Of a DNA stretch of 16,370 bases, positions 1 through 15,617 are shown in pieces. Each line of letters opens with the position of its first letter. Positions within the stretch are counted from its first letter, which is position 1. This DNA comes from a virus (taxonomy: Duplodnaviria > Heunggongvirae > Uroviricota > Caudoviricetes). Location: IMG/VR virus record IMGVR_UViG_2724679059_000001, one strand, 5' to 3'. The notes beneath the pieces are model-generated. The model saw only the letters and a list, made by a program, of their open reading frames with translations, was not told the origin of the DNA and did no database searches. Both the position numbers and the translations under genes were made by a program.

Positions 1-342
1 CTACATACGACTCTGCTGCTTCTCCGTATGTACACGTTTGACTATCTTATAAATCCATTGCAGCGTCAGATTATATTTCTTCGCTAATTCGGCGTAGTTG
101 CGCCCATCGCACTCGCTATAGATTTGGTAGTCACGCTCCGATGCTCGTCCGGAGATCCCCTTAGGGAAATAAATGCTTTGTCCGCCCCAGTTACGCATCA
201 TTCGGTCGGCAATGGCAAAACCCACATTTTCTGCCGATGAACTGTCGAGATTGATGCTTTCAATCAGAACTTGCGATGCATGAAAAGCCAGGTCGTTAAT
301 GATCTCCGGTGTCCGGGCCATCTCTTTTGATTTTCGTATCAT
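1..342 (-). CDS. Mor/C-family phage transcriptional activator (Mu middle-operon-regulator-like)
   Basis: Complete 113-aa ORF (ATG at 340-342, stop at 1-3) with a GGAG RBS 7 nt upstream on the - strand. C-terminal half (GGQSIYFPKG...DGRNYAELAKKYNLTLQWIYKIVKR) matches the conserved Mor/C helix-turn-helix region from memory. Divergent from the tail operon. Confidence 0.8.
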   Translation of the reverse strand: MIRKSKEMARTPEIINDLAFHASQVLIESINLDSSSAENVGFAIADRMMRNWGGQSIYFPKGISGRASERDYQIYSECDGRNYAELAKKYNLTLQWIYKIVKRVHTEKQQSRM

Positions 343-562
343 TTTTCATCTCCATATATCTTGCATCCTGAATAAGACCCGATGCGTGTAAAACCACGGA
401 TATACGCTAAGCAGTTGTCATTACTGCTACTCAATACATTCAACAAACAAATAAACAATCACCAGAAATATAAATTCTTAATATTAATGTACGCATAAAT
501 TCACTAAATAAATATATTGTTTGTGTTATGTTTCTTGTCAACAGGAGTATCATTTTACACGA

Positions 563-582
563 TACTGTATGCACATACAGTA
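563..582. promoter_or_regulatory. LexA (SOS) box, TACTGTATGCACATACAGTA
   Basis: Perfect CTGT-N8-ACAG palindrome with TA flanks; matches 16 of 20 positions of the enterobacterial consensus taCTGTatatatatACAGta, including all the most conserved positions. Lies in the divergent intergenic region. A TATTAT -10-like hexamer (581-586) overlaps it on +, and a TTGACA -35 (541-536) lies nearby on -. Confidence 0.7.
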
Positions 583-878
583 TTATTTTTACCTGTAGTG
601 TAAAAAGATCGTTTCCCTCACAGTCGCTGACTTTCTTAAACAAACTTTAAAAATCAAATAACTATCGACTATTCCTACGATCCACCATCATCTTTTCCCT
701 GCATAATGACGCGCTTATTCGCCAGGTCACCGTTTGCTCTTTAATTGCTGAGTCGATTTATTAGCGGGCATGTTCATTTATAGAGAATCTATTTTTTAAA
801 CTTATTTATTAAAGCTTTTTTCATTCTTCACTGGCGGGTTCTGACGACACTAAACGCTCACTTATCAGGAGATATCGT

Positions 879-1166
879 ATGAAAAAAGTCACTTTTCCCC
901 GGCTTTCCGGCTGGCTGGTCGCTTCCGTCGCGCTGTTTGTCGTGATCGGCTGGACCTCTTCAGCACAGATCCCGGTCGTCATTTATAAACTAAGCCTGGT
1001 TTCGCTTTCCGCGGTTCTGGGATACTGGCTCGATCGCAGTTTGTTCCCCTGGGCACGGCCTGACTCTTTTAGCCCCTGGAAGGAACCGCGTTGCTGCGCG
1101 GCGGCAATGATTCGCCGCGCCATCATCGTTGCCGCCGTCTGTCTTTCCGTCGCCTTAGGGCTATAG
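879..1166 (+). CDS. small membrane protein, candidate holin
   Basis: 95-aa ORF with AGGAG RBS 8 nt upstream. Two to three hydrophobic helices (LSGWLVASVALFVVIGW; LSLVSLSAVLGYWL; AIIVAAVCLSVALGL). Sits immediately upstream of, and overlaps, the lysin gene. Holin role is positional inference only. Confidence 0.5.
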   Translation: MKKVTFPRLSGWLVASVALFVVIGWTSSAQIPVVIYKLSLVSLSAVLGYWLDRSLFPWARPDSFSPWKEPRCCAAAMIRRAIIVAAVCLSVALGL

Positions 1167-1168
1167 TG

Positions 1169-1774
1169 ATGTGGCTGAAATATATCGCGTCTATGATTAT
1201 TTTCGTTCTTTTCCCGCTTAACGCCTCTGAACCGCCGCGAGCCTCTCTGGCATGGCGAAACGAACTAATTCGTACAGCTCGAGAAGTCTGGGGGCTGAAT
1301 GCCCCAGTGGCCGACTTTGCCGGGCAATTACACCAGGAGTCCGCCTGGCAGCCAATGGTACGTTCCCCCGTTGGCGCACAAGGTATGGCGCAATTTATGC
1401 CTGCTACTGCGACATGGATAAGCCAGTTGTATCCACAATTGCGTGAAAACAAACCGTATAACCCAACCTGGGCGATTCGCGCGCTGGTGCAATATGACCA
1501 GCATTTGTGGAAAAACATCTCTGCGCAAAATGACTGTCAGCGTATGGCGTTTACCCTAAGCGCCTATAACGGCGGTCAGGGGTGGGTTAACCGGGATAAA
1601 AAACTGGCTGCATCCAAAGGGTTAGATGCCACTCGCTGGTTTGGTCATGTCGAGCAAGTCAACGCCGGGCGCAGCGCCGCGAACTGGCGAGAAAATCGTC
1701 GCTATCCAAAGATGATTCTCTATCAACACGCTGCCCGCTATTTACTCTGGGGACAGGCAAGCTGTCTTCACTAA
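1169..1774 (+). CDS. lytic transglycosylase (SLT domain) endolysin with N-terminal signal peptide or signal-anchor
   Basis: SLT catalytic motifs read directly: HQESAWQP...SPVGAQGMAQFMPATA and AYNGGQG. Hydrophobic N-terminus MWLKYIASMIIFVLFPLNA. The longest ORF starts at TTG 1091 but overlaps the previous gene; ATG 1169 (or GTG 1166) overlapping the upstream stop is the more likely start. Confidence 0.85.
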   Translation: MWLKYIASMIIFVLFPLNASEPPRASLAWRNELIRTAREVWGLNAPVADFAGQLHQESAWQPMVRSPVGAQGMAQFMPATATWISQLYPQLRENKPYNPTWAIRALVQYDQHLWKNISAQNDCQRMAFTLSAYNGGQGWVNRDKKLAASKGLDATRWFGHVEQVNAGRSAANWRENRRYPKMILYQHAARYLLWGQASCLH

Positions 1775-1786: not shown

Positions 1787-2101
1787 ATGAAACTCAGTAT
1801 CGATTTTTGGGAAGTGATCTCCCTTATGCTTTCCTTCGTTGGATTAATGTTTGCTGCCGGAAAACTGCTGTTAGCGCAAATTGAAAAACGACTTAATGAG
1901 CGTTTTGAGTCTCTGGAAAATGCCCGCAGGGAATCAGAAACAAGTTGGTCGAAACTGGAAAGAGAGTTTCTTGAATTTCGTGCCGAGCTTCCGCTGCATT
2001 ATGTCCGCAGAGAAGATTATCTTCGTGGGCAAGCAGTATTAGAAGCAAAGCTGGATGCCTTATATAGCAAAATCGAGCTGTTACAACGTGGCAGTTATTA
2101 A
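1787..2101 (+). CDS. membrane-anchored coiled-coil protein, probable lysis accessory (i-spanin- or releasin-like)
   Basis: 104-aa ORF with GAGGGG RBS. N-terminal transmembrane segment (ISLMLSFVGLMFAAGKLLL) followed by a charged, heptad-like helical region. Last gene before a strong terminator. Confidence 0.5.
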   Translation: MKLSIDFWEVISLMLSFVGLMFAAGKLLLAQIEKRLNERFESLENARRESETSWSKLEREFLEFRAELPLHYVRREDYLRGQAVLEAKLDALYSKIELLQRGSY

Positions 2102-2107
2102 ATACAT

Positions 2108-2140
2108 CCCCACCTTTACGTAAGTGTGGGGATTTTTTAT
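2108..2140 (+). terminator. rho-independent terminator after the lysis cassette
   Basis: GC stem CCCCAC (2108-2113) pairing with GTGGGG (2126-2131), immediately followed by ATTTTTTAT, just after the stop at 2101. Confidence 0.7.
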
Positions 2141-2247
2141 AGCCATTCAATTTTTTCTCTAAATCACATTAAAAGATTCTTCACCTTCACTGCTTCATAA
2201 TACATCTCAACGATAACGAAGTGAGCGGTAATTAAGGTACACCTCAT

Positions 2248-2703
2248 ATGAAAATTTTATCTGCAATGAATTATGTCATGGTCAAATTACGTGATCGGCA
2301 TCCTGAAATGGATATATTTATTTCATCTACGGATGCCCAGAAATATATTCCACAGACACAACAAGTTGCAGTGATTATTAATTATAGCGGTTCTGTCTTT
2401 ACCACACCCGAAAGCAGTGATGCCATCGTGCAACAGCAAATACTCCGCTTAACCGCCACCGTTATTGTTGACAAAAATTGTGACGCGTTAAACGCACTTG
2501 ATTGCATACGCAGCGCATTGGGCGGCCTTCAGCTTCCTGATTGCGATCGTCTGCTTTGGCTTGAAAAAGAAATTAATACGGGTGAGAGCGGCGGTTTCTG
2601 CCGCTACATCCTGGAAATGGCGACCAGCTCGCTGTTTATCGCTGAACAGGAAAGCACGGATCTTCCCCTGCTTACGGAAGTTAACTACGAGGAAACTGAA
2701 TGA
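2248..2703 (+). CDS. phage tail-associated protein (Mu gp37-like, possible tail completion or terminator protein)
   Basis: 151-aa ORF, first gene of the tail block. Its stop overlaps the next start (ATGA at 2700-2703). Family assignment is from gene order and recollection, not a search. Confidence 0.5.
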   Translation: MKILSAMNYVMVKLRDRHPEMDIFISSTDAQKYIPQTQQVAVIINYSGSVFTTPESSDAIVQQQILRLTATVIVDKNCDALNALDCIRSALGGLQLPDCDRLLWLEKEINTGESGGFCRYILEMATSSLFIAEQESTDLPLLTEVNYEETE

Positions 2704-2897
2704 AATACATCTACAACGGCCCGGCAAGCGGCGTCACCCTTGCCGATGGACAAGAAATCTTATTGTGGCCGAACAGTGAAATTGATCTGCCAGAAGACAA
2801 CGAGTGGGTCATGACCATGATTGCCCGCAATCATCTGACTCCTGTCATCACTCAGGAAGAACAAAATAACGTAGAGGAAATTGTACATGGCAGCTAA
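2700..2897 (+). CDS. small conserved phage tail-module protein (Mu gp38-like)
   Basis: 65-aa ORF, translationally coupled on both sides (ATGA overlap upstream; overlaps the sheath start). Acidic protein. Function unknown. Confidence 0.5.
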   Translation: MKYIYNGPASGVTLADGQEILLWPNSEIDLPEDNEWVMTMIARNHLTPVITQEEQNNVEEIVHGS

Positions 2898-4311
2898 TTA
2901 CCTGCACGGTGTAGAAACCATTGAAATTGAAACCGGCCCGCGTCCGGTTAAAGCGGTAAAATCCGCCGTCATCGCTTTAATCGGTACGGCCCCCTGCGGT
3001 CCGGTAAATAAACCAACATTATGCCTTTCTGAAAGCGATGCTGCGCAGTTTGGCTCGACTCAGGCTAACTTTACGATCCCACAGGCACTGAAGGCGATTT
3101 ATGACCACGGTGCCGGTACGGTGGTGGTGATTAACGTGCTGGATCCGGCAAAACATGGCTCCAACATCAGCAATGAGAGTATCACTTTTGACGCTAACAA
3201 CCAGGCGAAGCTCGCTCACCGCAATGTGCGTAACGTGGTACTAAAGCCCTCTTCATCAAATTCATCAACCTTTAACACCGCAGCATTTAGCGTAGATGAA
3301 CAAACAGGCATAATTACCCGTAAAGGAGCCGACATTCCTCCTGGTGCGAAAGTTTGCGCCTATTATTCCTGGTGCGACCCTACAAAGGTCACCGCAGCCG
3401 ATATTATCGGTGCCGTAAATACCGCAGGCGACCGCACGGGGATGAAACTCCTTCAGGACACCTATAACCTGTACGGTTTCTACGCCAAAATCCTGCTTGC
3501 TCCCGTGTTTTGTACGCAAAAATCAGTAACTACTGAGCTGATTGCACAAGCGGAAAAACTCGGTGCGCTTACCTACATTGATGCTCCGATTGGGACGACA
3601 TTCCAGCAGGTATTGGCTGGACGCGGTTCGCAAGGGGCTATCAACTTCAATACCAGCTCTGATCGTGTGCGTTTATGTTACCCACACGTCAAAGTTTACG
3701 ATGGCATCACTAACCAGGAAGTTCTCGAACCACTCTCTTCGCGCGCTGCCGGGCTACGTGCCAAAGTAGACCTCGAAAAAGGTTTCTGGTGGAGCAACTC
3801 AAACCAGGAAATTCAGTGTATTACCGGTATTGAACGTTCGCTTTCTGCAATGATTGATGATCCACAAAGCGAAGTGAATCAGCTCAACGAAAACGGCATT
3901 ACCACTATTTTCAATAGTTACGGTTCTGGTCTGCGCTTGTGGGGCAACCGCACAGCGGCATGGCCTACCGTGACCCATATGCGTAACTTTGAAAACGTTC
4001 GCCGGACAGGCGATGTAATTAATGAGTCAATCCGTTATTTCAGTCAGCAGTATATTGATATGCCGATTAATCAGGCTCTTATTGACGCGCTGACCGAATC
4101 GGTAAATACCTGGGGCCGAAAACTGATTGCCGACGGCGCACTGCTTGGCTTTGAGTGCTGGTACGATCCGGCGCGAAATTCACCGGCTGAACTCAGCGCC
4201 GGGCATTTATTGCTTAGCTATAAATTCACCCCGCCGCCGCCGCTGGAACGTCTGACGTTTGAAACTGAAATTACTTCTGAATATTTAGTCTCTCTGGAGA
4301 GCAATAGCTAA
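2887..4311 (+). CDS. contractile tail sheath protein (P2 FI / Mu L-like)
   Basis: About 474 aa, the size and position expected for a myovirus sheath, immediately before the tube gene. GAGGAAA RBS before ATG 2887; the longest ORF begins at TTG 2881. Confidence 0.85.
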   Translation: MAANYLHGVETIEIETGPRPVKAVKSAVIALIGTAPCGPVNKPTLCLSESDAAQFGSTQANFTIPQALKAIYDHGAGTVVVINVLDPAKHGSNISNESITFDANNQAKLAHRNVRNVVLKPSSSNSSTFNTAAFSVDEQTGIITRKGADIPPGAKVCAYYSWCDPTKVTAADIIGAVNTAGDRTGMKLLQDTYNLYGFYAKILLAPVFCTQKSVTTELIAQAEKLGALTYIDAPIGTTFQQVLAGRGSQGAINFNTSSDRVRLCYPHVKVYDGITNQEVLEPLSSRAAGLRAKVDLEKGFWWSNSNQEIQCITGIERSLSAMIDDPQSEVNQLNENGITTIFNSYGSGLRLWGNRTAAWPTVTHMRNFENVRRTGDVINESIRYFSQQYIDMPINQALIDALTESVNTWGRKLIADGALLGFECWYDPARNSPAELSAGHLLLSYKFTPPPPLERLTFETEITSEYLVSLESNS

Positions 4312-4835
4312 TGGCTGGAAAAATTCAAATTAACCGTATTACCAACGCCAATATTTATCTCGATGGTAATAATCTTTTAGGTCGTGCAACCGAAATTAAA
4401 TTGCCGGATGTCAGTTTAATTATGCAAGAGCATAAAGCACTGGGTATGGTCGGTAAAATCGAACTCCCGGCTGGTTTCGATAAACTGGAGGGGGAAATTA
4501 AATGGAACTCCTTTTATCAGGACGTAATGCGTAAAACGGCAAACCCGTGGCAGGCAGTAGCATTACAGTGCCGCTCCAGTATTGATTGCTATAACTCCCA
4601 GGGGAAAGCGAATCAATTAGCGTTAGTGACACATTTAACCGTGATGTTTAAAAAGAATCCCTTGGGCACATTTAAACAGAATGAAAACCCGGAATTCAGC
4701 AGCGCCTTTGGTTGTACTTATATTAAACAAGTGGTCGATGGTGAAACGCTGCTTGAACTTGATTATATGGCGAATATTTTTCGGGTTAACGGCGTGGATC
4801 AATTAAGTACCTATCGCAATAACATCGGTGGCTAA
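4311..4835 (+). CDS. tail tube protein (P2 FII / Mu M-like)
   Basis: 174-aa ORF; start overlaps the sheath stop (TAATG). Size and position match tube proteins. Confidence 0.8.
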   Translation: MAGKIQINRITNANIYLDGNNLLGRATEIKLPDVSLIMQEHKALGMVGKIELPAGFDKLEGEIKWNSFYQDVMRKTANPWQAVALQCRSSIDCYNSQGKANQLALVTHLTVMFKKNPLGTFKQNENPEFSSAFGCTYIKQVVDGETLLELDYMANIFRVNGVDQLSTYRNNIGG

Positions 4836-4885: not shown

Positions 4886-5203
4886 ATGAAAGAGCATTAT
4901 ATCTTACAGTTCCCATTTACGTCGGCAGCAGGAAATACTATCGACTCGCTGCAATTACGTCGCCTGAAAGTAAAAGATATGCGCAACGCGCGCCGGATCA
5001 GCGAAAAACCCGAAGAGTGGGATGAACCGCTAATGGCGGCGATGACCGGACTGGTGCCAGAAGATTTAGCTGAAATGGATTTGCTGGATTACCAGGCATT
5101 GCAGAAACGATTTCAATCCATGCTTACCGTGGTTACAGAATCCTCCCCAGCTATGGCAGGCAATGGCGCTACTGGCGAGATGGTTTCGCTTTCCACCCAG
5201 TGA
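4886..5203 (+). CDS. tail assembly chaperone (P2 gpE-like)
   Basis: 105-aa acidic protein between the tube and tape-measure genes, the canonical chaperone position. AAGGA RBS. Confidence 0.6.
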   Translation: MKEHYILQFPFTSAAGNTIDSLQLRRLKVKDMRNARRISEKPEEWDEPLMAAMTGLVPEDLAEMDLLDYQALQKRFQSMLTVVTESSPAMAGNGATGEMVSLSTQ

Positions 5204-5392
5204 GATAGACGCGCTCACCATAGATGACTTTAGCAACTGGCTGGATGAAGCCAGCGACCAAATAAAGATCGAATATGGCTCGCAGACCTGATGTCTGCGA
5301 GTTCTTCAAAGCCCGCCAGGTTTATTTCTTCCCAGCCCCTTTTTTAGAAAAATAACCAGTGGGCCATTATCAATAATTAAAGAGAAACAATT

Positions 5393-6274
5393 TTGGCCAA
5401 CGATATTATTACCCAGCTTCAGGCGCGTAATGAGACGTTGACGCAGGCAATAGCCCGTTACGGCTCACTCAACGCCAGAACTTTGTTAGCTCTCTCTTCT
5501 CAGCAAGCGACAGTAATCAAACTAACGCAGCAACTTGCCGATTCTGCTCTCCGCCTGGAGGAAAATAGCCGGAACCGCGCTGATCTAATGGAGAAAACCC
5601 AAACATTTGCCGGGCAATTTAGCAAGGTATTCAATGTTGAAGCCCCCGACTGGAAGTTGCCATATGAGTTCCAGGACAACATGGTCAATATGGCGACCAA
5701 AGGTGGGATGAATGCTACAACCCGCGAGACGCTCAGCCTTAATCTGCGCGACTGGAGCATGGATTTTAACCAGCAGCAGACCACCTTACAGAACGCAGCC
5801 CAAACGCTGATCGAAGGCAATTTGTCGTCGATGCAGGATCTCAACCGTTATATGCCGGAGATCGCCAAAGCTGCCACCGCCACGCGCGAAAGTGCTGAAA
5901 CGTGGGCGAATGCCGCGCTCGCGACTCATGATCGATTGAATATTGCCCCGGAAAATTTCCACGCCACGCAAAACATGATGTATGGCATTAGCAAAAGCGG
6001 TGGGCCTGCCGTTGCCGAACAAACGCAGTGGATAGAGAAATTTGCAGGTAAAACCGGCGCTCAGGGTCTGGAAGGTATGGCTGAACTGACCGCCATCATG
6101 CAGATCGCCATGAAAAACGGGGCCAGCGCCAGTGCGGCGGCGGAGAATTTCGACCACTTTCTGCAAACCACCTTTTCGAAAAAACCGATAACTGGTTCGC
6201 CAGCCAGGGCGTTGATCTGCAAGGCTCTCTGCTTGAGCATCAGCAAAACGGTATGGGTGTTAGCGAAGCCATGA
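5393..6274 (+). CDS. tail tape measure protein, N-terminal part (gene apparently frameshifted)
   Basis: Ala/Gln-rich helical protein in the tape-measure position, starting at TTG 5393. The frame ends at 6274 while the continuation runs in another frame from an A6 tract at 6179-6184. Confidence 0.65.
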   Translation: MANDIITQLQARNETLTQAIARYGSLNARTLLALSSQQATVIKLTQQLADSALRLEENSRNRADLMEKTQTFAGQFSKVFNVEAPDWKLPYEFQDNMVNMATKGGMNATTRETLSLNLRDWSMDFNQQQTTLQNAAQTLIEGNLSSMQDLNRYMPEIAKAATATRESAETWANAALATHDRLNIAPENFHATQNMMYGISKSGGPAVAEQTQWIEKFAGKTGAQGLEGMAELTAIMQIAMKNGASASAAAENFDHFLQTTFSKKPITGSPARALICKALCLSISKTVWVLAKP

Positions 6275-8929: not shown

Positions 8930-9957
8930 GCGTAACTGGTGGCGTCTTTGCCACACTCACGCCCATTTTTACCCTCTGGTATGGGCATAAAGATATCACT
9001 TATGACATCACACCCTATGTCACCAGCATCAGTTACCACGACAGCATCAAAAACGAGTCAGATACCATCGCGATTACACTGGATGACACCGATGGACGCT
9101 GGATAAAAGAGTGGTATCCCGGCAAAGGCGATACGCTGGCGCTGCATATGGGTTATCAGGGGGAAAAGCTGCTCGATTGTGGTCAGTATATTATTGATAA
9201 AATTGATATTTCAGCGCCACCTTCTACGGTAAATATTGATGGCATCGCCACTTCCGTCAATCAGGCGCTGCGTACCCGTAACAGCCAGGGCTTTGAAGAA
9301 ACGACGCTTTCGGCTATCGCCAGCCGTATCGCCCAAACGCACGGTCTGAAACTGGTGGGCAAAATCGAGCCGCTCACCATCGACCGGGTAACGCAGTATG
9401 GTGAAACCGATGTCGGATTTCTCAAGCGCCTGGCCAGCGAATATGGCTATGCGGTAAAGGTGACCACCAAAGAACTGATTTTTTCGCATTTACCCACGCT
9501 GCGCTGCCTGGCGCCGGTAAAAACGATCGACCGCAAAGACGTTTCGCATTTCACCTTCAAAGATACCATTAACCGTATCTACAAAAATGCCACCGTACAG
9601 CATCAAAATAGTAAGAAAAAAGAACTGGTTATCTACACCCACGACAGCCAGCAAAAACCGTCTACCCGTGGAGTCGGCACCAGTGCCGACACGCTAAAAC
9701 TGAACAGTCGGGCGCCGGACGTTGGCGCGGCACAGGCAAAGGCCAACGCCGCGCTCGACAGCCACAACGAATATCAACAAACCGGAACGCTCAGGATGAT
9801 GGGCTGCCCGGAACTGACGGCGGGCAATAAAATTGAACTGACCGATTTTGGCGTGCTTTCCGGTCAGTGGCTGATTGATAAATCGACTCACAGTTTTGTG
9901 CGCAGCGGCTATACCACTGAAATCGACGTGTCACGCGGGCCAGCGACCAGCCAGTAA
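8917..9957 (+). CDS. baseplate hub / tail protein D (P2 gpD-like)
   Basis: 346-aa ORF directly after the gpX-like gene, the conserved X-D order. Size and position fit the hub protein. Confidence 0.8.
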   Translation: MAEISVTGGVFATLTPIFTLWYGHKDITYDITPYVTSISYHDSIKNESDTIAITLDDTDGRWIKEWYPGKGDTLALHMGYQGEKLLDCGQYIIDKIDISAPPSTVNIDGIATSVNQALRTRNSQGFEETTLSAIASRIAQTHGLKLVGKIEPLTIDRVTQYGETDVGFLKRLASEYGYAVKVTTKELIFSHLPTLRCLAPVKTIDRKDVSHFTFKDTINRIYKNATVQHQNSKKKELVIYTHDSQQKPSTRGVGTSADTLKLNSRAPDVGAAQAKANAALDSHNEYQQTGTLRMMGCPELTAGNKIELTDFGVLSGQWLIDKSTHSFVRSGYTTEIDVSRGPATSQ

Positions 9958-9966: not shown

Positions 9967-10668
9967 ATGAAAGGAGTAACCCGTCAAACGGGGATTATCA
10001 GCGATATTGACGAAACCAGCGTTCGGGTGCGAGTCACGCTTCCGGAGTGTGACAATCTGAAGAGCAACTGGCTTGCGGTACTTCAACGCAATTCCCAGGA
10101 CAATAAAGACTACTGGCTACCGGATATGGGCGAGCAAGTGGAAGTTCTGCTGGACAATAACGGTGAAGATGGCGTGGTGCTGGGCGCAGTTTATTCTACG
10201 GTTGACACCGCGCCTGTGGCCTCGCGCGATAAACGTTACGTCCAGTTTTCTGATGGCGCAGCGTTTGAATATGACCGCAGCACCCACCAGCTGACGATTA
10301 ACGGCGGTATCGAGAAAATCGTGATTGAGGTTATCGACAGTACCCGCCTGACATCACCCAACGTTGAGATTAAAGCCCAACAGGTCACCGTGACTTCCGA
10401 TACCGTCGATATTAAAGCGACCGATGTCAGCATCGACGCCACTAAGGTCGATGTTAAAGCGGCAGCAGTGACGGTAGATGCGCCCATGAGCACCTTTACT
10501 GGCAATGTCACGGTAATGAAAAAACTCACCTGGCTTGGCGGGATGGCAGGAAGTGGAGGCATCGGTAACGCCGCCACGATAACTGGCAATGTCAACGTGA
10601 TCGGCAACGTTCAGGCCAGCGGCGCATTGCAGGACAGCGGTGGCAACTCCAACCACCATACACACTGA
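9967..10668 (+). CDS. baseplate central spike (P2 gpV / T4 gp5-like)
   Basis: Perfect AAGGAGG RBS. N-terminal OB-like region followed by beta-helix repeats (VTVTSDTVDIKATDVSIDATKVDVKAAAVTVDAP) and a His-rich C-terminus (NSNHHTH), consistent with a metal-binding spike apex. Confidence 0.85.
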   Translation: MKGVTRQTGIISDIDETSVRVRVTLPECDNLKSNWLAVLQRNSQDNKDYWLPDMGEQVEVLLDNNGEDGVVLGAVYSTVDTAPVASRDKRYVQFSDGAAFEYDRSTHQLTINGGIEKIVIEVIDSTRLTSPNVEIKAQQVTVTSDTVDIKATDVSIDATKVDVKAAAVTVDAPMSTFTGNVTVMKKLTWLGGMAGSGGIGNAATITGNVNVIGNVQASGALQDSGGNSNHHTH

Positions 10669-10673: not shown

Positions 10674-10703
10674 AACCCGCCTGATGGCGGGTTTTCTCTT
10701 TTT
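10674..10703 (+). terminator. rho-independent terminator inside the tail cluster, between spike and wedge genes
   Basis: Stem AACCCGCC (10674-10681) / GGCGGGTT (10686-10693) with loop TGAT, followed by the T-rich run TTCTCTTTTT, 6 nt after the spike stop. Confidence 0.6.
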
Positions 10704-10766
10704 AATCAATCAGTTTTCTAAATCGCTTTAATATCGCCACAGCCCGTTCAGGGCGAAAATACCCTC

Positions 10767-11126
10767 ATGAACACAAAAACACGACCCTCAACGCTGCACT
10801 GGCAACCGGCCTTGCAGCGGCCTGAAGAATACGTCTGCGGACTGGATGATATTCACCAGGCAATACACATCATTCTGCGCACACCGCGCGGCAGTGATCC
10901 CCACAGACCGCTGTTTGGCAGCAACTTGTGGCACTACATCGATTACCCCATCGAGCGGGCAATTCCGCATGTGGTACGGGAGTCGGTGGAAGCCATCCGC
11001 CAGTGGGAGCCGCGCTGTCGGTTGCTGAAGGTGACACCAGTAATCGACGGCGAACATCTGACGTTACGTGTGCAATGGCGCGCCGCTGACGGCGTTATCA
11101 ACTCAACGGAGGTGTTATGGCGATAG
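10767..11126 (+). CDS. baseplate wedge protein (GPW / gp25 family)
   Basis: 119-aa ORF with gp25-like motifs (ILRTPRGSDPHRPLFGSNL...WEPR). Confidence 0.85.
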   Translation: MNTKTRPSTLHWQPALQRPEEYVCGLDDIHQAIHIILRTPRGSDPHRPLFGSNLWHYIDYPIERAIPHVVRESVEAIRQWEPRCRLLKVTPVIDGEHLTLRVQWRAADGVINSTEVLWR

Positions 11127-12232
11127 CCGAACCCAATTTTATTGACCGCGATCCTGCGCAAATTACCAGTGAGATGATTGCGCAATACGAAGATGCCAGC
11201 GGTAAAAAACTCTATCCGGCACAGGCTGAGCGGTTGCTCATCGACCTGTTTGCCTATCGTGAAAACCTTGTACGCATCGCCATTCAGGAAGCGGCGAAAC
11301 AGAACCTGGTCGCGTATTCCCGCGCGCCAATGCTGGATTATTTAGGGGAGTTGGTGGGCGTTCACCGTTTGCCTGCGCAGCCGGCAAAAACGACGTTGCA
11401 GTTTTCGGTCGTCAGCGCGTATACCAGCAATATCCTGATTCCCCAGGGAACGCGGGCCAGTGCCTCTGATAGCGTGATGTTCGCCACCGATGAAGATGTT
11501 CTGCTTCCGGCCAGGAGTTTGCATATCGCCGTTCCTGCCACCAGCCTCGCAGCAGGTGAACAGGGTAACGGCTGGCAGCCTGCACAAATTAGCGCACTGG
11601 TCGACAGGATTGGTCATTATGACATCAACGTAACCAACCTGACTGCGTCAACGGGCGGCTGCGGTGAAGAGAGCGATGACGCATTGCGCCAGCGTATCCA
11701 ACTGGCACCAGAAAGCTTTAGTAATGCGGGCAGCTATGGTGCCTACCGCTTTCATACGCTTTCTGTTAGCCAGTCGATTATTGACGTTGCAGTACTGGGG
11801 CCGGACGAGGGATTGCCAGAAGGCTGCGTGGAGATCTACCCGCTAACTCTGAACGGACTGCCGGGAATAGAACTGCTCGCGCAAATTGAACAGGAGGTTA
11901 GCAAGGAGAAAAAACGTCCGCTGACCGACAAAGTGAGTGCGAAATGCGCTCTTCGAGTGCCATATGAGATCCGTGCGCAGCTAACGCTGTTTACCACCGC
12001 CGATCAGGAGACAACGCTGGCTGCAGCGCGTAAAGCGATTAGCCTCTGGACGCAACAGCGGCAGAAACATCTGGGGCAGGACATTGTGCCAAACCAGATA
12101 ATCAAAGTGTTACAGGTCGATGGCGTCTATGACGTTGCGCTGAATATGCCTACAAAACGTATTTTGCAGGCGCATGAGTGGGCGGAATGCACCGCAATAG
12201 ACGTCACGATTGCCGGAGTCAGCGATGGATAA
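11117..12232 (+). CDS. baseplate protein J (P2 gpJ / T4 gp6-like)
   Basis: 371-aa ORF in the W-J-I order; overlaps both neighbours. Confidence 0.85.
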   Translation: MAIAEPNFIDRDPAQITSEMIAQYEDASGKKLYPAQAERLLIDLFAYRENLVRIAIQEAAKQNLVAYSRAPMLDYLGELVGVHRLPAQPAKTTLQFSVVSAYTSNILIPQGTRASASDSVMFATDEDVLLPARSLHIAVPATSLAAGEQGNGWQPAQISALVDRIGHYDINVTNLTASTGGCGEESDDALRQRIQLAPESFSNAGSYGAYRFHTLSVSQSIIDVAVLGPDEGLPEGCVEIYPLTLNGLPGIELLAQIEQEVSKEKKRPLTDKVSAKCALRVPYEIRAQLTLFTTADQETTLAAARKAISLWTQQRQKHLGQDIVPNQIIKVLQVDGVYDVALNMPTKRILQAHEWAECTAIDVTIAGVSDG

Positions 12233-12857
12233 ATTGCTGCCACCGCCGCCGCTTGCCAGCGATGAGCGTTTTTCGATTCTGGCAAATATCGCCGCCGAGC
12301 GTTTTGCCCAACTCGATCTGACGGCGTTGATGGTTTATCTGATCGACCAGGTTGATGCTTCGGCATTACCAGCCCTTGCAGAACAATTTCACGTTCAGGG
12401 GCTGGAAGGTTGGTTATTTACCACCGATGAGCGGGAGAAACGCGAGTTAATTAAACAAGCCATTGAACTGCATAAATATAAAGGAACAATTTGGGCGGTG
12501 CGGCGGGTGCTGGAAATACTCTCATTACCAGGAACTATTTCAGAATGGTTTGAATATGGGGGAAGGGCTTATTTTTTTAAGGTGGATATAGCGCTGGTGG
12601 ATAAAGGCCTGGATGAAAACCTTTTCAATGATTTGGTAGAACTCATTCATGAATATAAAAACACACGTTCAAAACTGGAAGCATTAATCGTCTGGATCAT
12701 TAACCAAAGTGCTATTCCTGTTATTGGCTGTGCACTTTATGGTGGTGAACTGACGACGGTTTTACCTTTCCAGATACGGGAAGTACAGCACAACACATCG
12801 ATTTATTACGGAACAGGGCAATGGAGCCTTGAAATTACATCTATTTACCCGGAGTAA
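12225..12857 (+). CDS. tail protein I (P2 gpI-like)
   Basis: N-terminal LLPPPPLASDERFSILANIAAERF and a KGT motif match the gpI family from memory. ATG 12225 overlaps the J stop; the longest ORF starts at TTG 12210. Confidence 0.8.
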   Translation: MDKLLPPPPLASDERFSILANIAAERFAQLDLTALMVYLIDQVDASALPALAEQFHVQGLEGWLFTTDEREKRELIKQAIELHKYKGTIWAVRRVLEILSLPGTISEWFEYGGRAYFFKVDIALVDKGLDENLFNDLVELIHEYKNTRSKLEALIVWIINQSAIPVIGCALYGGELTTVLPFQIREVQHNTSIYYGTGQWSLEITSIYPE

Positions 12858-12859: not shown

Positions 12860-14518
12860 ATGGACAATGAGTTTTATACTCTACTCACCGACAGGGGAAT
12901 GGCAAAAATTGCCAATGCTCTGGCGGATAAAAAACAGCTTCATCTACAAAAAATGGCTGTTGGTGACAGCGGAGGACAATATTATGAACCCACCGTCAGC
13001 CAAACTAAATTACGCCATGAAGTATGGCGCGGTGATTTAAATACATTAACAGTTGCACCCAATAACCCTAACTGGTTAATTGCGGAACTCGTGCTGCCCG
13101 AAAATATCGGCGGCTGGTATGTACGTGAAGTCGGCGTTTTTGATACCGATGGTGAACTCATTGCTATCGGTAAATTCCCGGAGTCGTATAAACCACTATT
13201 ACCCGGCGGCAGCGGTAAGCAAGTTTGCATTCGCCTGATTATGGAAGTTTCCAACACGACTGCGGTAACACTCACCGTTGACCCCAGTATTGTACTGGCA
13301 ACACGGGATTATGTTGATTCACAACTGGATGAACATGAGCGTTCGACTAATCATCCTGATGCTACGTTAACGCAAAAAGGCTTTACACAGTTGAGTAACG
13401 CCACTGACAGTGATGACGAAACCAAAGCGGCTACGCCAAAAGCGGTGAAAGCGGCAATGATTGAGGCTCGAAATCATCGTCATACCTGGAGTCAGATTAC
13501 TGATATACCAGATGGTACGCTGACACAAAAAGGGATTGTGAAGCTTAATAACGCGACAGACAGCAACAGTACGACGGAGGCGGCGACACCGAGCGCGGTG
13601 AAGGCGGCATATGACCTGGCGAATAGTAAGGCTGCGGGAAACCATACTCACCCATGGGGACAGATTACGGGTGTTCCAGACGGCACCCTGTCGCAAAAAG
13701 GGATTGTGAAGCTTAATAACGCGACGGATAGCAACAGTACGACGGAGGCGGCGACACCGAGCGCGGTGAAGGCGGCAATGGATAAGGCAAAAACTGCAGC
13801 TCCAGCTAATCATACCCACACTAGTTTTTATACTACAAATGGAACATTTATAGTTCCTGAGGGCGTAACAATATTATTTGTGGAAATTATGGGCGGCGGA
13901 GGTGGGGGGGCCGGAGGAGCACAATCATCACATTATGAAGCCTGCGGAGGTAATGCAGGAGAATTGATTGTTGATTACTTAAACGTGGCACCAGGCCAGC
14001 ATTTTTCAGTAAAGATCGGAGCTGGAGGTAATGGAGGTCCTTTTTGGAACAATCCACCTGTTTCACAAATAAAGTATTCGTATGATAAAACAGAGACAAC
14101 ACAAAAAAGCTTTGATGGTGGAGACTCTTCGTTTTCTAATCTAACTGCAAAAGGTGGCCATGGAGGATATAACATTTATCACTCTAACACTACGCAGCCT
14201 TATATAAAATTCAGTGACGATCCTAAAGGTACTCCACCAAATGCAATACCGTCATCTGCAGAATTTTATCCTGGAAAGAATGGTGAAAATTCTATATATG
14301 GAAAGGGAGGGGCTTCAGGTACTGTTATTACAGAAAACCTAAGTAATGGTGGAAAAAAAGCAGTAATGGCAAAGCCAACAGCAGCAACAGGTTATGGTTC
14401 TGGAGGAGCTGGGGGATCTTATTTACCTCCTTTTCAATATAAAAATAATGAGTTAACAAATTTAGGCAATACTAGCGGAACAAAAGGTGCCTCTGGCTTC
14501 GTAAAAATATCATGGTAA
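12860..14518 (+). CDS. tail fiber protein: P2 gpH / R-pyocin-fiber-like N-terminus, tandem fiber repeats, glycine-rich C-terminal receptor-binding domain
   Basis: N-terminal ~150 aa (LLTDRGMAKIANALA...MAVGDSGGQ...AELVLPENIGGWYVREVGVFDTDGELIAIGKFPESYKP...ATRDYVDSQL) matches the conserved baseplate-attachment domain of P2 gpH-type fibers. Three fiber repeats (TLTQKGIVKLNNATDS...AATPSAVKAA) follow, then an AT-rich Gly-rich C-terminus. Confidence 0.85.
   Translation: MDNEFYTLLTDRGMAKIANALADKKQLHLQKMAVGDSGGQYYEPTVSQTKLRHEVWRGDLNTLTVAPNNPNWLIAELVLPENIGGWYVREVGVFDTDGELIAIGKFPESYKPLLPGGSGKQVCIRLIMEVSNTTAVTLTVDPSIVLATRDYVDSQLDEHERSTNHPDATLTQKGFTQLSNATDSDDETKAATPKAVKAAMIEARNHRHTWSQITDIPDGTLTQKGIVKLNNATDSNSTTEAATPSAVKAAYDLANSKAAGNHTHPWGQITGVPDGTLSQKGIVKLNNATDSNSTTEAATPSAVKAAMDKAKTAAPANHTHTSFYTTNGTFIVPEGVTILFVEIMGGGGGGAGGAQSSHYEACGGNAGELIVDYLNVAPGQHFSVKIGAGGNGGPFWNNPPVSQIKYSYDKTETTQKSFDGGDSSFSNLTAKGGHGGYNIYHSNTTQPYIKFSDDPKGTPPNAIPSSAEFYPGKNGENSIYGKGGASGTVITENLSNGGKKAVMAKPTAATGYGSGGAGGSYLPPFQYKNNELTNLGNTSGTKGASGFVKISW
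13369..13790 (+). repeat. in-frame tandem repeat array inside the tail fiber gene (3 copies, about 168-bp period)
   Basis: 13526-13609 and 13694-13777 are 82/84 nt identical; a more diverged copy lies at about 13369-13450. Each encodes a T..KG(I/F)..L.NATDS...AATP.AVKAA unit followed by an H-x-H motif. Confidence 0.75.
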
Positions 14519-14524
14519 TTAAAA

Positions 14525-15139
14525 ATGACAAAATATGCTTGTTTTGATCCTGAAACATTTATCGTTCTGGACTGGATCGATACAGAACACTACAACTATC
14601 CTAAAGTAGAACATTTAGTTGAAATAACTGATCAGCAATGGCAGACATATGCGAAAGCTAATATCCCAATTTGGATTAACTGTGAAGATTTATCCTTTAT
14701 CTCTACGCCACCACCAGATAGATTTCACAAACTAAAAAAAGGAGAATGGATAGTTGATACAGATTCAATGCTTAAATTTATTTCAGAAATAAAAGCGGAT
14801 ATAATAAGAAGAATAAAATCCAAACGGGATTACGTCACAACCGATTACATCATCATCAACAACCATCACTTCCACAGTGATACAAACAGCCGTATCCAAC
14901 AGCTCTCACTCACAAAAATGGGAGCGGAGAAAAAAATCCCTCCAGGGTTAATGTGGAAAACTAAAAATAACGGTCTGATCGAGTTAACCAACGAGATCGC
15001 CGCCCAGTTTGAATCGGTAACAATGGATCACGATATGCGCCTGTTCGCCAATGCCCAGCACCATATCGCGGCGGTGGAAGCTCTGGACGATATTCAGGCG
15101 GTGCTCGACTACGATTATTCAACAGGCTGGCAAGCATGA
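14525..15139 (+). CDS. tail fiber assembly protein (P2 gpG / Mu U-like chaperone)
   Basis: 204-aa ORF immediately after the fiber. The C-terminal half (FANAQHHIAAVEALDDIQAVLDYDYSTGW) resembles the conserved Tfa region; the N-terminal half is AT-rich like the fiber tip. Confidence 0.8.
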   Translation: MTKYACFDPETFIVLDWIDTEHYNYPKVEHLVEITDQQWQTYAKANIPIWINCEDLSFISTPPPDRFHKLKKGEWIVDTDSMLKFISEIKADIIRRIKSKRDYVTTDYIIINNHHFHSDTNSRIQQLSLTKMGAEKKIPPGLMWKTKNNGLIELTNEIAAQFESVTMDHDMRLFANAQHHIAAVEALDDIQAVLDYDYSTGWQA

Positions 15140-15591
15140 GTAAAACCACTGTCTGGCTCGCTTGTTATAAGGGCCGAACAGAGCACCGTGGTATTGCCCG
15201 ACTGGCTGACTGGCTTACCCGTAAAATCACGCGCGGTAGTTATTCCCACTGTGAATTAGCCGTTAAGCATGGTGAAAAGAGTTACCTTTGTTACTCTGCA
15301 TCACTGCGCGATCGCGGTGTACGCGGAAAGATAATGCCATTGCCAGCGGATAAGTGGGATATGCTGCCGCTCCAGGCCAGCCTTCAGGACGTGGAAGCGT
15401 TTTTCCATAAACATGATGGCAAAAAATATGATTGGCGCGGCGCGCTTGGAATTATTACCGGTAATAAAGAACAGCGTGAACGCCTGTTTTGCAGCGAATT
15501 TTGTGCCGAATTTCTGCAATTAAAGGAGAGTTGGCGCTATTCCCCAAACCACTTGTACGCTTTAGTCAGTAGCTGGCAATATCAGCCGTAA
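15136..15591 (+). CDS. hypothetical Cys/His-rich protein; cargo gene translationally coupled to the tail-fiber assembly gene
   Basis: 151-aa ORF whose ATG overlaps the Tfa stop (ATGA at 15136-15139). Contains SHCE and FCSEFC motifs; I do not recognise the family with confidence. Confidence 0.5.
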   Translation: MSKTTVWLACYKGRTEHRGIARLADWLTRKITRGSYSHCELAVKHGEKSYLCYSASLRDRGVRGKIMPLPADKWDMLPLQASLQDVEAFFHKHDGKKYDWRGALGIITGNKEQRERLFCSEFCAEFLQLKESWRYSPNHLYALVSSWQYQP

Positions 15592-15596
15592 AATAA

Positions 15597-15617
15597 CGCC
15601 GGGCTTCACGCCCGGCG
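15597..15617. terminator. hairpin terminator shared by the convergent genes
   Basis: Perfect 8-bp stem CGCCGGGC (15597-15604) / GCCCGGCG (15610-15617) with a 5-nt loop. On the - strand it is followed by TTATTTTA, so it reads as an intrinsic terminator for the nucleotidyltransferase gene; it sits 6 nt after the + strand stop at 15591. Confidence 0.55.

What the first reader, a model, noticed from the sequence alone, without database searches (positions are those of the whole stretch)
1..15600. Headless contractile-tail cluster with its own lysis cassette and activator: candidate R-type tailocin
Across about 15.6 kb I can assign a full contractile-tail set (sheath, tube, chaperone, tape measure, gpU/X/D hub, gpV spike, gpW/J/I wedge, fiber, Tfa), a lysis cassette (membrane protein, SLT lysin, membrane coiled-coil protein) and a Mor-family activator. 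No ORF resembles capsid, portal, terminase, protease/scaffold, replication, integrase or transposase. The lysis genes are separated from the first tail gene only by a terminator, where Mu-type phages carry their head genes. This architecture is what defines phage-tail-like bacteriocins (as in Pseudomonas R-pyocins). The alternative is a tail-only remnant of a Mu/P2-type prophage.
Basis: partly seen in the sequence, partly recalled or inferred. Interest (0 to 1): 0.85.

Follow-up and report, generated by a model that had tools for sequence, protein, structure and literature searches.

The report
Headless Mu-type tailocin cluster in E. coli
This stretch of the E. coli chromosome encodes a complete phage tail without a head, plus its own cell-bursting genes and an activator that appears wired to the DNA-damage alarm. 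It is a relative of the known plant-pathogen weapon carotovoricin, but in this copy the tail-length ruler gene carries a one-base frameshift.

Summary
Window 1-15591 carries a Mor-family activator, a lysis cassette and a full contractile-tail gene set, with no head, packaging, replication or transposition genes.

The window is E. coli chromosome. In near-identical genomes the cluster lies between the core genes lysC and yjbD, with housekeeping genes on both sides, so it is not part of a complete prophage.

The cluster derives from a BcepMu-like (Mu-type) phage. The deletion removed exactly terminase-small through the head-tail adaptor gp36 and kept the tail terminator Gp37.

The same headless cluster sits beside lysC in Salmonella (STM4198-4219), Superficieibacter, Phytobacter and Dryocola. 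Every gene is intact under purifying selection (dN/dS 0.02-0.27). A canonical LexA box is conserved between Mor and the holin.

It belongs to the same kind as carotovoricin, the Mu-type tailocin of Pectobacterium, but forms a separate lineage.

Caveats:
- In this window the tape-measure gene is split by a 1-bp deletion (A7 to A6). None of 195 complete E. coli genomes carrying this segment has it.
- The "Tfa" is a DUF4376 protein, not a canonical Tfa.
- No outer-membrane spanin was found.

Verdict: a new member of a known kind, of moderate interest.

The parts
1..342 (-). Mor-family late transcriptional activator (113 aa); its stop codon lies 61 bp from the lysC stop codon
   Evidence: Pfam PF08765 E 2.2e-37. 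PHROG 532 'late transcriptional activator'. 44% identical to the Mor/C protein of phage PhiKM. Position relative to lysC.
563..582 (.). LexA (SOS) box TACTGTATGCACATACAGTA. It overlaps a sigma-70-like + strand promoter (TTTACA 554-559, 16 nt, TACAGT 576-581). It also abuts a possible - strand -10 element (TAAAAT, 557-552) facing Mor.
   Evidence: It is the only CTGT-N8-ACAG in the window (expected 0.11) and matches the consensus at 17 of 20 positions, with 0 of 200 shuffles matching as well. A box is present at the same place in all 7 lysC-type loci from 5 genera, and in three further E. coli alleles, with changes only in the central spacer. Promoter scan.
637..681 (+). Candidate Mor-dependent late promoter P1: box TAAACAAACTTTAAAAATC (637-655), a 20-nt gap, then -10-like TACGAT (676-681), with no -35. 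It faces the lysis genes.
   Evidence: The motif is conserved in E. coli, Salmonella, Phytobacter and Dryocola. The same box type lies upstream of the holin in carotovoricin loci and in L008. Function is inferred.
791..814 (+). A/T-rich block ATTTTTTAAACTTATTTATTAAAG, nearly invariant, 65-88 nt upstream of the holin start codon. Its role is unresolved (second activator site or promoter element).
   Evidence: Nearly invariant across five genera in an intergenic region with 61% mean identity.
879..1166 (+). Holin (95 aa, three hydrophobic segments)
   Evidence: PF13272 E 4e-27. PHROG 1528 'holin'. Hydropathy profile.
1169..1774 (+). SLT-domain lytic transglycosylase endolysin with a short N-terminal signal-like segment
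   Evidence: PF01464 E 1e-14. PHROG 669 'endolysin' E 1e-61.
1787..2101 (+). Membrane-anchored coiled-coil protein (104 aa), Rz/i-spanin-like. No o-spanin partner was found.
   Evidence: One N-terminal transmembrane segment. PHROG 462. No lipobox ORF anywhere in 1100-2260.
2106..2133 (+). Intrinsic terminator ending the lysis operon
   Evidence: Hairpin of -15.5 kcal/mol, z -3.76, followed by U6.
2160..2201 (+). Candidate late promoter P2 for the tail operon: box TAAATCACATTAAAAG (2160-2175), a 20-nt gap, then CATAAT (2196-2201)
   Evidence: The box and a -10 element ending in AATAC are conserved upstream of Gp37 in all lysC-type loci. Function is inferred.
2248..2703 (+). Gp37 tail terminator (hexameric cap of tube and sheath)
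   Evidence: PF09646 E 1e-32. E 9.5e-54 to PDB 2GJV, the Salmonella orthologue STM4215. 2GJV is listed among tail-terminator hexamers in PMC11784142. Mu gp37 is the tail terminator (PMC11915804).
2700..2897 (+). Conserved 65-aa protein of unknown role (position of Mu gp38)
   Evidence: PHROG 895 E 3.5e-35. Present in every relative.
2887..4311 (+). Contractile tail sheath
   Evidence: PF04984 and PF17482. 71-74% identical to Bcepmuvirus sheaths. Best solved homologue is the R2-pyocin sheath PA0622, E 3.5e-44.
4311..4835 (+). Tail tube
   Evidence: PF04985 E 4e-56.
4886..5291 (+). Tail assembly chaperone E (4886-5203) with its frameshift extension E' (5157-5291, in the +1 frame relative to E)
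   Evidence: PF10109 E 7.5e-20. The extension peptide LLARWFRFxPSEID...WL..A..QIK is conserved in about 60 relatives. Low dS in E is consistent with dual coding.
5393..7767 (+). Tape measure gene, interrupted in this window by a 1-bp deletion in an A-run (6173-6178, A6 instead of A7)
   Evidence: ORFs 5393-6274 and 6253-7767. PF10145 and PHROG tape-measure families. Indel mapped. 195 of 195 complete genomes carrying this segment differ from the window there. A7 was read directly in four of the five fetched E. coli alleles; the search pattern did not match in the fifth.
7767..8720 (+). gpU-family tube initiator with a coiled-coil C-terminal extension
   Evidence: PF06995 E 2e-33. PHROG 788 E 1e-130. 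Role assigned by analogy with Mu gp43 (PMC11915804).
8720..8929 (+). gpX (tail protein X)
   Evidence: PF05489 E 7e-23.
8917..9957 (+). gpD baseplate hub
   Evidence: PF05954.
9967..10668 (+). gpV spike
   Evidence: PF04717.
10674..10693 (+). Terminator-like hairpin after gpV. This spacer is also where Salmonella carries a gtrABC insertion.
10719..10760 (+). Candidate late promoter P3 for the wedge and fibre genes: box TAAATCGCTTTAATATC (10719-10735), a 19-nt gap, then GAAAAT (10755-10760)
   Evidence: CTTTAATAT is invariant at this position in lysC-type loci, carotovoricin loci and intact phages.
10767..12857 (+). Baseplate wedge proteins gpW (10767-11126), gpJ (11117-12232) and gpI (12225-12857)
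   Evidence: PF04965, PF04865 (E 2e-62) and PF09684 (E 1e-33).
12860..14518 (+). Tail fibre (552 aa) with a 168-nt tandem repeat at 13470-13805; variable between strains
   Evidence: PF12571, PF03406 and PF21722. Repeat found. The fibre is 608 aa in S10 and 526-589 aa in other alleles, with a diverged C-terminal part.
14525..15591 (+). DUF4376 fibre-associated protein (14525-15139) and a conserved 151-aa protein (15136-15591); probable fibre accessory or chaperone genes
   Evidence: PF14301. PHROGs 1807 and 2837, 'tail' category. Orthologues are STM4199 and STM4198 in Salmonella.

Best explanation
The locus is a domesticated, head-less derivative of a BcepMu-like (Mu-type) transposable phage, fixed in the lysC-yjbD spacer of the Enterobacteriaceae chromosome. 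It works as an SOS-inducible R-type tailocin.

Proposed sequence of events:
1. DNA damage causes LexA to cleave itself and leave the box at 563-582 (inferred).
2. The Mor-family activator is then made (inferred; which strand the LexA-controlled promoter serves is unresolved).
3. Mor switches on three -35-less late promoters that carry a TAAA..TTTAA box (inferred). P1 drives holin, SLT endolysin and the spanin-like protein. P2 drives terminator, sheath, tube, chaperones, tape measure, tube initiator, hub and spike. P3 drives wedge, fibre and fibre accessory genes.
4. Tails assemble without heads, because the tail terminator is kept while the head-tail adaptor and all head genes are gone (gene content shown).
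5. Holin and endolysin burst the producer cell.
6. The released particles bind related cells through the hypervariable fibre, contract and kill (by analogy with carotovoricin and R-pyocins; not testable here).

In this particular window a 1-bp deletion breaks the tape-measure gene. This copy is therefore either inactive or carries a homopolymer sequencing error.
For: Gene content: assign every ORF. One search finds no head, packaging or transposition homologue in the window.

Context:
- lysC lies on the left. RlaP, slipin and yjbD lie on the right. Housekeeping genes extend for 16 kb on each side.
- K-12 has the empty site, and an 18.2-kb island replaces 121 bp of spacer.

Origin:
- The sheath is 71-74% identical to Bcepmuvirus phages.
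- Intact relatives carry TerS through gp36 between the membrane-protein gene and Gp37.
- Gp37 is a tail terminator.

Domestication:
- The same architecture lies beside lysC in Salmonella, Superficieibacter, Phytobacter and Dryocola.
- All 20 genes are intact, with dN/dS 0.02-0.27 and dS 0.6-2.8, similar to neighbouring lysC at 1.2-1.6.
- Within E. coli, three further alleles are fully intact, with pooled dN/dS 0.13-0.145.

Regulation:
- A consensus LexA box is conserved in every lysC-type locus.
- Late-promoter boxes are conserved upstream of each operon, and terminators delimit the operons.

Precedent: homologous headless clusters in Pectobacterium, with a TolC-like gene upstream, are carotovoricin. 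Carotovoricin is an experimentally known 'Mu-type tailocin' under SOS control.

Fibre hypervariability with a conserved core is typical of tailocins.
Against: - No experimental evidence of particles or killing exists for the E. coli or Salmonella locus in the searched literature.
- The tape-measure gene is frameshifted in this window.
- No o-spanin gene was found, so lysis may be less efficient or use another route.
- The orientation of the LexA-controlled promoter cannot be settled from sequence. The best sigma-70 match points toward the lysis genes rather than Mor.
- The late-promoter motif was derived post hoc.
- dS between genera is saturated, so those dN/dS values are rough.
- The cluster is present in only about 3.5% of complete E. 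coli genomes (191-199 of 5426), so it is dispensable.
Confidence: 0.72

Rival explanations
1. Inert remnant: a BcepMu-like prophage that lost its head and early genes and is simply decaying, with no present function.
For: This window's tape-measure gene is frameshifted. One E. coli lineage (H1-H5) has pseudogenised fibre genes. One genome seems to carry an insertion of about 0.8 kb. The locus is absent from about 96% of complete E. coli genomes. Partial carotovoricin clusters show that such loci can degrade (PMC13195805).
Against: All 20 genes are intact in five genera at synonymous saturation, with dN/dS 0.02-0.27. Within E. coli the pooled dN/dS is 0.13-0.145 and four of five sampled alleles are fully intact. 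Non-coding regulatory elements (LexA box, promoter boxes) are conserved in otherwise diverged spacers. The deletion boundaries fall exactly at the head/tail functional border.
Confidence: 0.1
2. A functional tail-like particle with a role other than killing related bacteria. Examples would be SOS-triggered explosive lysis that releases other goods, or a particle aimed at other targets.
For: The lysis cassette and the SOS box would also serve a release function. No receptor or target data exist. The fibre-accessory genes (DUF4376 protein and the 151-aa protein) are uncharacterised.
Against: No toxin or effector cargo genes and no eCIS-type ATPase were found among the ORFs. The fibre has phage-type collar and repeat domains and is hypervariable between strains and serovars, as expected for bacterial surface recognition. 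The closest characterised homologue, carotovoricin, is bactericidal.
Confidence: 0.1
3. Part of a complete or helper-dependent phage system: the tails are joined to heads encoded elsewhere, by another prophage or a capsid-forming satellite.
For: The tail terminator, the surface that normally docks the head adaptor, is retained. Related intact BcepMu-like prophages circulate in Enterobacterales.
Against: The cognate adaptor gp36 is deleted, and no head genes lie within 16 kb on either side. Gp37 is the fastest-evolving structural protein here (37-59% identity between genera against 79-84% for the sheath; dN/dS 0.20-0.27), as if the head-docking constraint had been lost. The locus is chromosomally fixed at one site in five genera.
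Confidence: 0.04

Closest known systems
Carotovoricin (Ctv) of Pectobacterium, the 'Mu-type tailocin' (Yamada et al. 2006; PMC13195805; PMC13566846)
   Same: Both derive from the same BcepMu-like phage family (sheath 75% identical). Gene order is the same: holin, SLT lysin, membrane protein, Gp37, small protein, sheath, tube and onward to the fibre. The same head block is missing. The E' frameshift extension and the TAAA..TTTAA boxes upstream of the holin and gpW are shared. Both are SOS-linked.
   Different: The chromosomal site differs (tolC_2-ybiB against lysC-yjbD). The two form separate clades with intact phages between them (a joint clade had 0% bootstrap support). Ctv loci have no linked Mor gene and no LexA box within 5 kb upstream of the sheath. 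Ctv has extra genes in its lysis region and often an invertase (ein) for fibre switching; the window has none.
Salmonella enterica STM4198-STM4219 'phage remnant' beside lysC. It includes STM4215 (PDB 2GJV) and the fibre gene STM4200 used as a Typhimurium qPCR marker.
   Same: It is the orthologue: same site, same gene order, a Mor gene and a LexA box. Protein identities are 59-97% (sheath 82%), and dS is like that of lysC.
   Different: Salmonella carries a gtrABC O-antigen modification operon inserted between gpV and gpW. Fibre sequences differ. In the searched literature it is treated only as a prophage remnant, a structural-genomics target or a PCR marker, not as a tailocin.
Bcepmuvirus phages (BcepMu, phiE255, Escherichia phage PhiKM, Klebsiella phage KP12)
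   Same: Tail and lysis modules and the Mor-type late activator are homologous.
   Different: The phages carry terminase, portal, MuF/MuG, protease, capsid, adaptor gp36, transposase A/B and other early genes. All of these are absent here.
R-type pyocins of Pseudomonas aeruginosa (P2-type tailocins)
   Same: Headless contractile tail plus lysis cassette, SOS-inducible through a dedicated activator. The R2 sheath PA0622 is the nearest solved sheath structure.
   Different: R-pyocins descend from P2-like rather than BcepMu-like phages. Their regulators are PrtR/PrtN rather than LexA box plus Mor (regulators from established knowledge, not tested here). Gene order and the terminator family also differ.

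Membership tests
R-type tailocin (phage tail-like bacteriocin) | Complete contractile-tail gene set: terminator, sheath, tube, chaperones, tape measure, tube initiator, hub, spike, wedge, fibre | tested here: met
   All were identified by Pfam, PHROGs or PDB matches. Roles were mapped onto the Mu structure.
R-type tailocin (phage tail-like bacteriocin) | All structural genes intact in this copy | tested here: not met
   The tape measure is split by a 1-bp deletion at 6173-6178. None of the 195 complete genomes carrying this segment shares the deletion. It could be a sequencing error.
R-type tailocin (phage tail-like bacteriocin) | No capsid, portal, terminase, replication, integrase or transposase genes in or next to the locus | tested here: met
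   No hits in the window. Flanks in near-identical genomes are core genes for 16 kb on each side.
R-type tailocin (phage tail-like bacteriocin) | Dedicated lysis cassette for release | tested here: met
   Holin, SLT endolysin and an Rz-like membrane protein. An o-spanin was not found.
R-type tailocin (phage tail-like bacteriocin) | Stress (SOS) inducible expression | tested here: inconclusive
   A consensus LexA box is conserved in five genera next to a Mor activator gene. Binding, induction and promoter orientation were not testable.
R-type tailocin (phage tail-like bacteriocin) | Maintained by selection at a fixed chromosomal site (domestication) | tested here: met
   The same lysC site is used in five genera, with dN/dS 0.02-0.27 between genera and 0.13-0.145 within E. 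coli.
R-type tailocin (phage tail-like bacteriocin) | Produces headless particles that kill sensitive bacteria | not testable with these tools
   Needs induction, EM and spot assays. No report was found in the searched literature.
Carotovoricin (Ctv) orthologous lineage | Homologous Mu/BcepMu-type tail and lysis genes in the same order | tested here: met
   Sheath 75% and tube 76% identical; same order.
Carotovoricin (Ctv) orthologous lineage | Located between tolC_2 and ybiB, and monophyletic with the Pectobacterium clusters | tested here: not met
   The window's locus lies at lysC-yjbD. An NJ bootstrap gave 0% support for a joint clade, while each group alone had 100%. The Ctv flank was confirmed by a TolC-like OEP protein.
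Complete Bcepmuvirus prophage | Head and packaging module, plus transposase A/B early module | tested here: not met
   No tblastn hits to TerS, TerL, portal, MuF, MuG, protease, MCP, gp36, MuA or MuB of PhiKM.
R-type pyocin (P2-type) lineage | P2-like ancestry and gene order | tested here: not met
   The closest phages are Bcepmuvirus. P2-like phages (Peduovirus) appear only among distant sheath hits. The Gp37-type terminator and the Mor activator are Mu-type features.
eCIS / T6SS-type contractile injection system | AAA+ ATPase, cargo or effector genes, and no phage lysis cassette | tested here: not met
   No such domains were found in any ORF, and a lysis cassette is present.

The most novel reading that the evidence does not exclude
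The lysC-linked cluster would be an ancient tailocin, domesticated independently of carotovoricin from the same Mu-type phage family. It would predate or span the Escherichia-Salmonella divergence and be kept functional in at least five Enterobacteriaceae genera. It would be controlled by a minimal circuit not described for tailocins: one LexA box acting directly on a cis-encoded Mor activator, which fires three late promoters. In E. coli it would be a presence/absence-polymorphic, fibre-diversified weapon. In Salmonella it would be near-universal, with a gtr O-antigen-modifying operon embedded in it as possible self-protection.
Probability: 0.45. Interest if true: 0.62.

Novelty: new member of a known kind. 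Interest (0 to 1): 0.45.

Why it matters
E. coli and Salmonella are the best-studied enteric bacteria, yet I found no paper that treats this conserved, apparently SOS-wired tail cluster as a tailocin. If the intact alleles make killing particles, several things would follow:
- It would add a strain-specific weapon to models of gut competition, alongside colicins, which are also SOS-induced.
- It would explain why the fibre gene STM4200 is serovar-specific.
- It would give a native enterobacterial chassis for engineered tailocins.
- It would provide a second, independent case of the same Mu-type phage family being turned into a tailocin, which is useful for asking how repeatable domestication is.

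The proposed LexA-Mor-late-promoter circuit is small enough to test directly.

Tried and rejected
- An AlphaFold single-sequence model of Gp37 gave pLDDT 47.9, too poor for a fold search. I used the sequence match to PDB 2GJV and the literature instead.
- I first took the 9-mer ATTCTTCAC (823 and 2176) for a shared promoter motif. It is not conserved in Salmonella. I dropped it in favour of the TAAA..TTTAA boxes, which are conserved across genera.
- I tried to decide which gene the LexA-overlapped promoter serves, using a six-sequence alignment and a comparison with the Lelliottia relative. This stayed unresolved, because the conserved hexamer reads as a -35 on one strand and a -10 on the other.
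- A search for an Rz1-type lipoprotein in all frames of 1100-2260 found none.
- PADLOC found nothing for the RlaP nucleotidyltransferase and slipin genes on the right. They occur in 1632 of 5426 genomes independently of the tail genes, so I excluded them from the element.
- Rfam and tRNA scans were empty.
- The 'ST131 tailocin' paper (PMC9205054) concerns a different, P2-like prophage.
- Literature searches for STM42xx locus tags, 'Mu-type tailocin' and Salmonella tailocins found no functional study of this locus.


Full report
**What is in the window**

The + strand from 879 to 15591 is one dense run of co-oriented ORFs. A single divergent ORF lies at 1-342.

Profile searches assign them as follows:
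- Mor-family late activator, 1-342, - strand
- holin, 879-1166
- SLT lytic transglycosylase, 1169-1774
- membrane-anchored coiled-coil protein, 1787-2101
- Gp37 family protein, 2248-2703
- conserved 65-aa protein, 2700-2897
- sheath, 2887-4311
- tube, 4311-4835
- E-type assembly chaperone, 4886-5203
- tape measure, 5393-7767
- gpU, gpX, gpD, gpV, 7767-10668
- gpW, gpJ, gpI, 10767-12857
- tail fibre, 12860-14518
- DUF4376 fibre-associated protein, 14525-15139
- conserved 151-aa protein, 15136-15591

The last ORF (15606-16370, - strand, running off the end) is an RlaP-family nucleotidyltransferase and is not part of the element.

A strong hairpin with a U-run separates the lysis genes from Gp37 (2106-2133, -15.5 kcal/mol, z -3.8). 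A second terminator-like hairpin follows gpV (10674-10693).

**Three corrections**

First, the tape-measure gene is broken in this window. Compared with E. coli strain S10, which is 99.9% identical over 1-13780, one A is missing from an A7 run, leaving A6 at 6173-6178. The gene falls into two ORFs, 5393-6274 and 6253-7767. A 61-nt probe across the site matched 195 complete E. coli genomes, all with the one-base difference and none identical. A7 was read directly in four of the five fetched alleles. This is either a strain-specific null mutation or a homopolymer sequencing error.

Second, the "Tfa" is a DUF4376 protein, not a canonical tail-fibre assembly protein.

Third, no lipoprotein spanin partner exists in any frame of 1100-2260.

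**Is it really headless?**

The window is E. coli chromosome.

In genomes 98-99.9% identical to it, lysC ends 61 bp to the left of window position 1. To the right come RlaP, a slipin gene, yjbD and rluF. The next 16 kb on each side are housekeeping genes (mal, xylE, pgi, metH, ace).

K-12 has lysC and yjbD adjacent. The island of 18.2 kb replaces 121 bp of that spacer and begins immediately after the lysC stop codon.

tblastn with the head, packaging and transposition proteins of the related phage PhiKM finds nothing in the window.

RlaP occurs in 1632 of 5426 genomes, against 191-199 for the tail genes. It is an independent neighbour.

**Ancestry**

The nearest phages are Bcepmuvirus: BcepMu, phiE255, Escherichia phage PhiKM and Klebsiella phage KP12, with sheath identity of 71-74%.

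A scan of one genome per species gave 74 related loci, which I classified by tblastn.

- Intact prophages have this order: SLT, membrane protein, TerS, TerL, portal, MuF, MuG, protease, capsid, gp36, Gp37, 65-aa protein, sheath.
- The window has this order: SLT, membrane protein, terminator, Gp37, 65-aa protein, sheath.

The missing block thus runs exactly from the small terminase to gp36.

In phage Mu, gp36 is the head-to-tail adaptor and gp37 is the tail terminator that caps tube and sheath (PMC11915804). The window's Gp37 matches PDB 2GJV at E 9.5e-54. 2GJV is the Salmonella orthologue STM4215 and is listed among tail-terminator hexamers (PMC11784142).

The deletion therefore follows the functional border between head and tail assembly.

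The chaperone's out-of-frame extension (5157-5291) is conserved in about 60 relatives.

**Conservation**

The same architecture (lysC, divergent Mor, lysis genes, Gp37 onward) occurs in these genera:
- Salmonella enterica, as LT2 genes STM4198-4219
- two Superficieibacter species
- Phytobacter massiliensis
- Dryocola

Against each of these, all 20 genes are uninterrupted. dN/dS is 0.02-0.27. dS is 0.6-2.8, comparable to the adjacent core gene lysC at 1.2-1.6 (Nei-Gojobori method, synonymous sites saturated, so the values are rough).

Within E. coli, three further alleles (96.6%, 96.1% and 94.9% identical) are annotated without any pseudogene. Their pooled dN/dS is 0.13-0.145 at an unsaturated dS of 0.12-0.19, against 0.05-0.086 for flanking lysC and pgi.

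The fibre and its accessory gene are the variable part:
- fibre lengths range from 526 to 608 aa
- a 168-nt repeat varies in copy number
- the C-terminal parts are diverged

In Salmonella the fibre gene STM4200 is distinctive enough to serve as a Typhimurium-specific PCR target (PMC6201931).

A conserved core with a diversifying fibre under long-term purifying selection argues against a decaying remnant. Individual copies do decay, however: this window's tape measure, and the fibre pseudogenes in the H1 lineage.

**Regulation (partly shown, mostly inferred)**

The 536-bp spacer between mor and the holin holds the window's only CTGT-N8-ACAG. It is TACTGTATGCACATACAGTA at 563-582, matching the LexA consensus at 17 of 20 positions. 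No shuffle out of 200 matched as well. From memory, it differs from the E. coli recA operator only in the central four bases.

A LexA box sits at the equivalent place in all seven lysC-type loci from five genera and in three further E. coli alleles. Substitutions are confined to the central spacer. Carotovoricin loci and the headless relatives that keep early genes have none.

The box overlaps the only sigma-70-like promoter match in the first 3 kb (TTTACA, 16 nt, TACAGT, + strand). The same invariant hexamer reads as a TAAAAT -10 element on the - strand, facing mor. I could not decide the orientation. A single box could also serve both directions.

Three A/T-rich boxes of the form TAAA(C/T)-N2-4-(C/A)TT(T/A)AA were found. 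Each is followed about 20 nt later by a -10-like hexamer, with no -35:
- 637-681, between the LexA box and the holin
- 2160-2201, upstream of Gp37
- 10719-10760, upstream of gpW

They are conserved at these positions in the other genera. For the holin and gpW sites, they are also conserved in carotovoricin loci and intact phages.

Activator-dependent, -35-less late promoters are what Mor and C proteins use in Mu (established knowledge). The motif was derived post hoc, so its chance expectation (0.05 per window) is only indicative.

**Comparison with known systems**

The headless relatives in Pectobacterium and Samsonia have a TolC-like gene just upstream of the holin. That is the published left boundary of carotovoricin (PMC13195805).

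Carotovoricin is described as a "Mu-type tailocin" under SOS control (PMC13566846). The title of Yamada et al. 2006 already states that it shares an ancestor with a "Salmonella typhi prophage", probably this lysC-linked locus.

So the kind of system is known. The lysC-type cluster is nevertheless a distinct lineage:
- in an NJ tree of sheath, tube and gpD it is monophyletic (100% bootstrap)
- its sister is a Lelliottia headless element that still keeps mor, B and the transposase (100%)
- it never groups with carotovoricin (0%), and intact phages lie in between

This suggests independent head loss. The tree is a distance tree on three proteins of a mosaic phage family, so the inference is tentative.

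Unlike carotovoricin, the lysC type carries its activator and a LexA box in cis.

Searches of the paper library found no study of the E. coli or Salmonella locus as a tailocin. The published "ST131 tailocin" is a different, P2-like prophage.

**Verdict**

The locus is best described as a carotovoricin-like, Mu-type R-tailocin cluster of Enterobacteriaceae, present in about 3.5% of complete E. coli genomes. It is probably SOS-induced through LexA and Mor. This copy is possibly disabled.

It is a new member of a known kind. Interest is moderate, because the family and even its Salmonella relative were already noted. The enteric lineage, its regulatory wiring and its activity remain untested.

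Noticed in passing
L005 28118-30953 (Salmonella Infantis); corresponds to window spacer 10669-10766: A gtrABC O-antigen glucosylation operon is inserted between gpV and gpW of the orthologous Salmonella cluster, exactly at the window's gpV-gpW spacer. If LPS is the receptor, it could act as self-protection for the producer.
   Followed up: no
L008 2476-11416; L011 and L014: Lelliottia wanjuensis and two Brenneria species carry headless BcepMu-like elements that still keep mor, MuB and the transposase. They look like intermediates between prophage and tailocin. The Lelliottia element is sister to the lysC-type lineage (100% bootstrap).
   Followed up: partly
window 4886-5291: The conserved extension of the tail assembly chaperone lies in the +1 frame relative to gene E. 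The -1 frame stops at 5206. The usual -1 programmed frameshift therefore cannot produce it; a +1 or -2 shift would be needed. The slip site was not identified.
   Followed up: partly
window 15606-16370 and beyond (L002 23775-25699): A gene pair encoding an RlaP-family nucleotidyltransferase and an SPFH/slipin protein sits at the same lysC-yjbD site in 1632 of 5426 complete E. coli genomes, independently of the tail cluster. It has no PADLOC match and its function is unknown.
   Followed up: partly
window 2248-2703: The tail terminator Gp37 is the fastest-evolving structural protein of the cluster. It is 37-59% identical between genera, against 79-84% for the sheath, with dN/dS 0.20-0.27. This would fit relaxed constraint after loss of its head-side partner gp36.
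   Followed up: partly
window 13470-13805: A 168-nt (56-aa) tandem repeat lies inside the fibre gene. The window has two copies. The 56-aa longer fibre of strain S10 is consistent with a third copy.
   Followed up: partly
NZ_CM148328.1 4392376-4405953 (hit H59): One E. coli genome matches window 1-12800 at 100% identity, but in two pieces spanning about 778 extra bases. This suggests an IS insertion inside the cluster.
   Followed up: no
window 791-814: A 24-nt A/T-rich block (ATTTTTTAAACTTATTTATTAAAG) upstream of the holin is almost invariant across five genera. It does not have the box-to--10 spacing of the other candidate late promoters, and its role is unexplained.
   Followed up: partly
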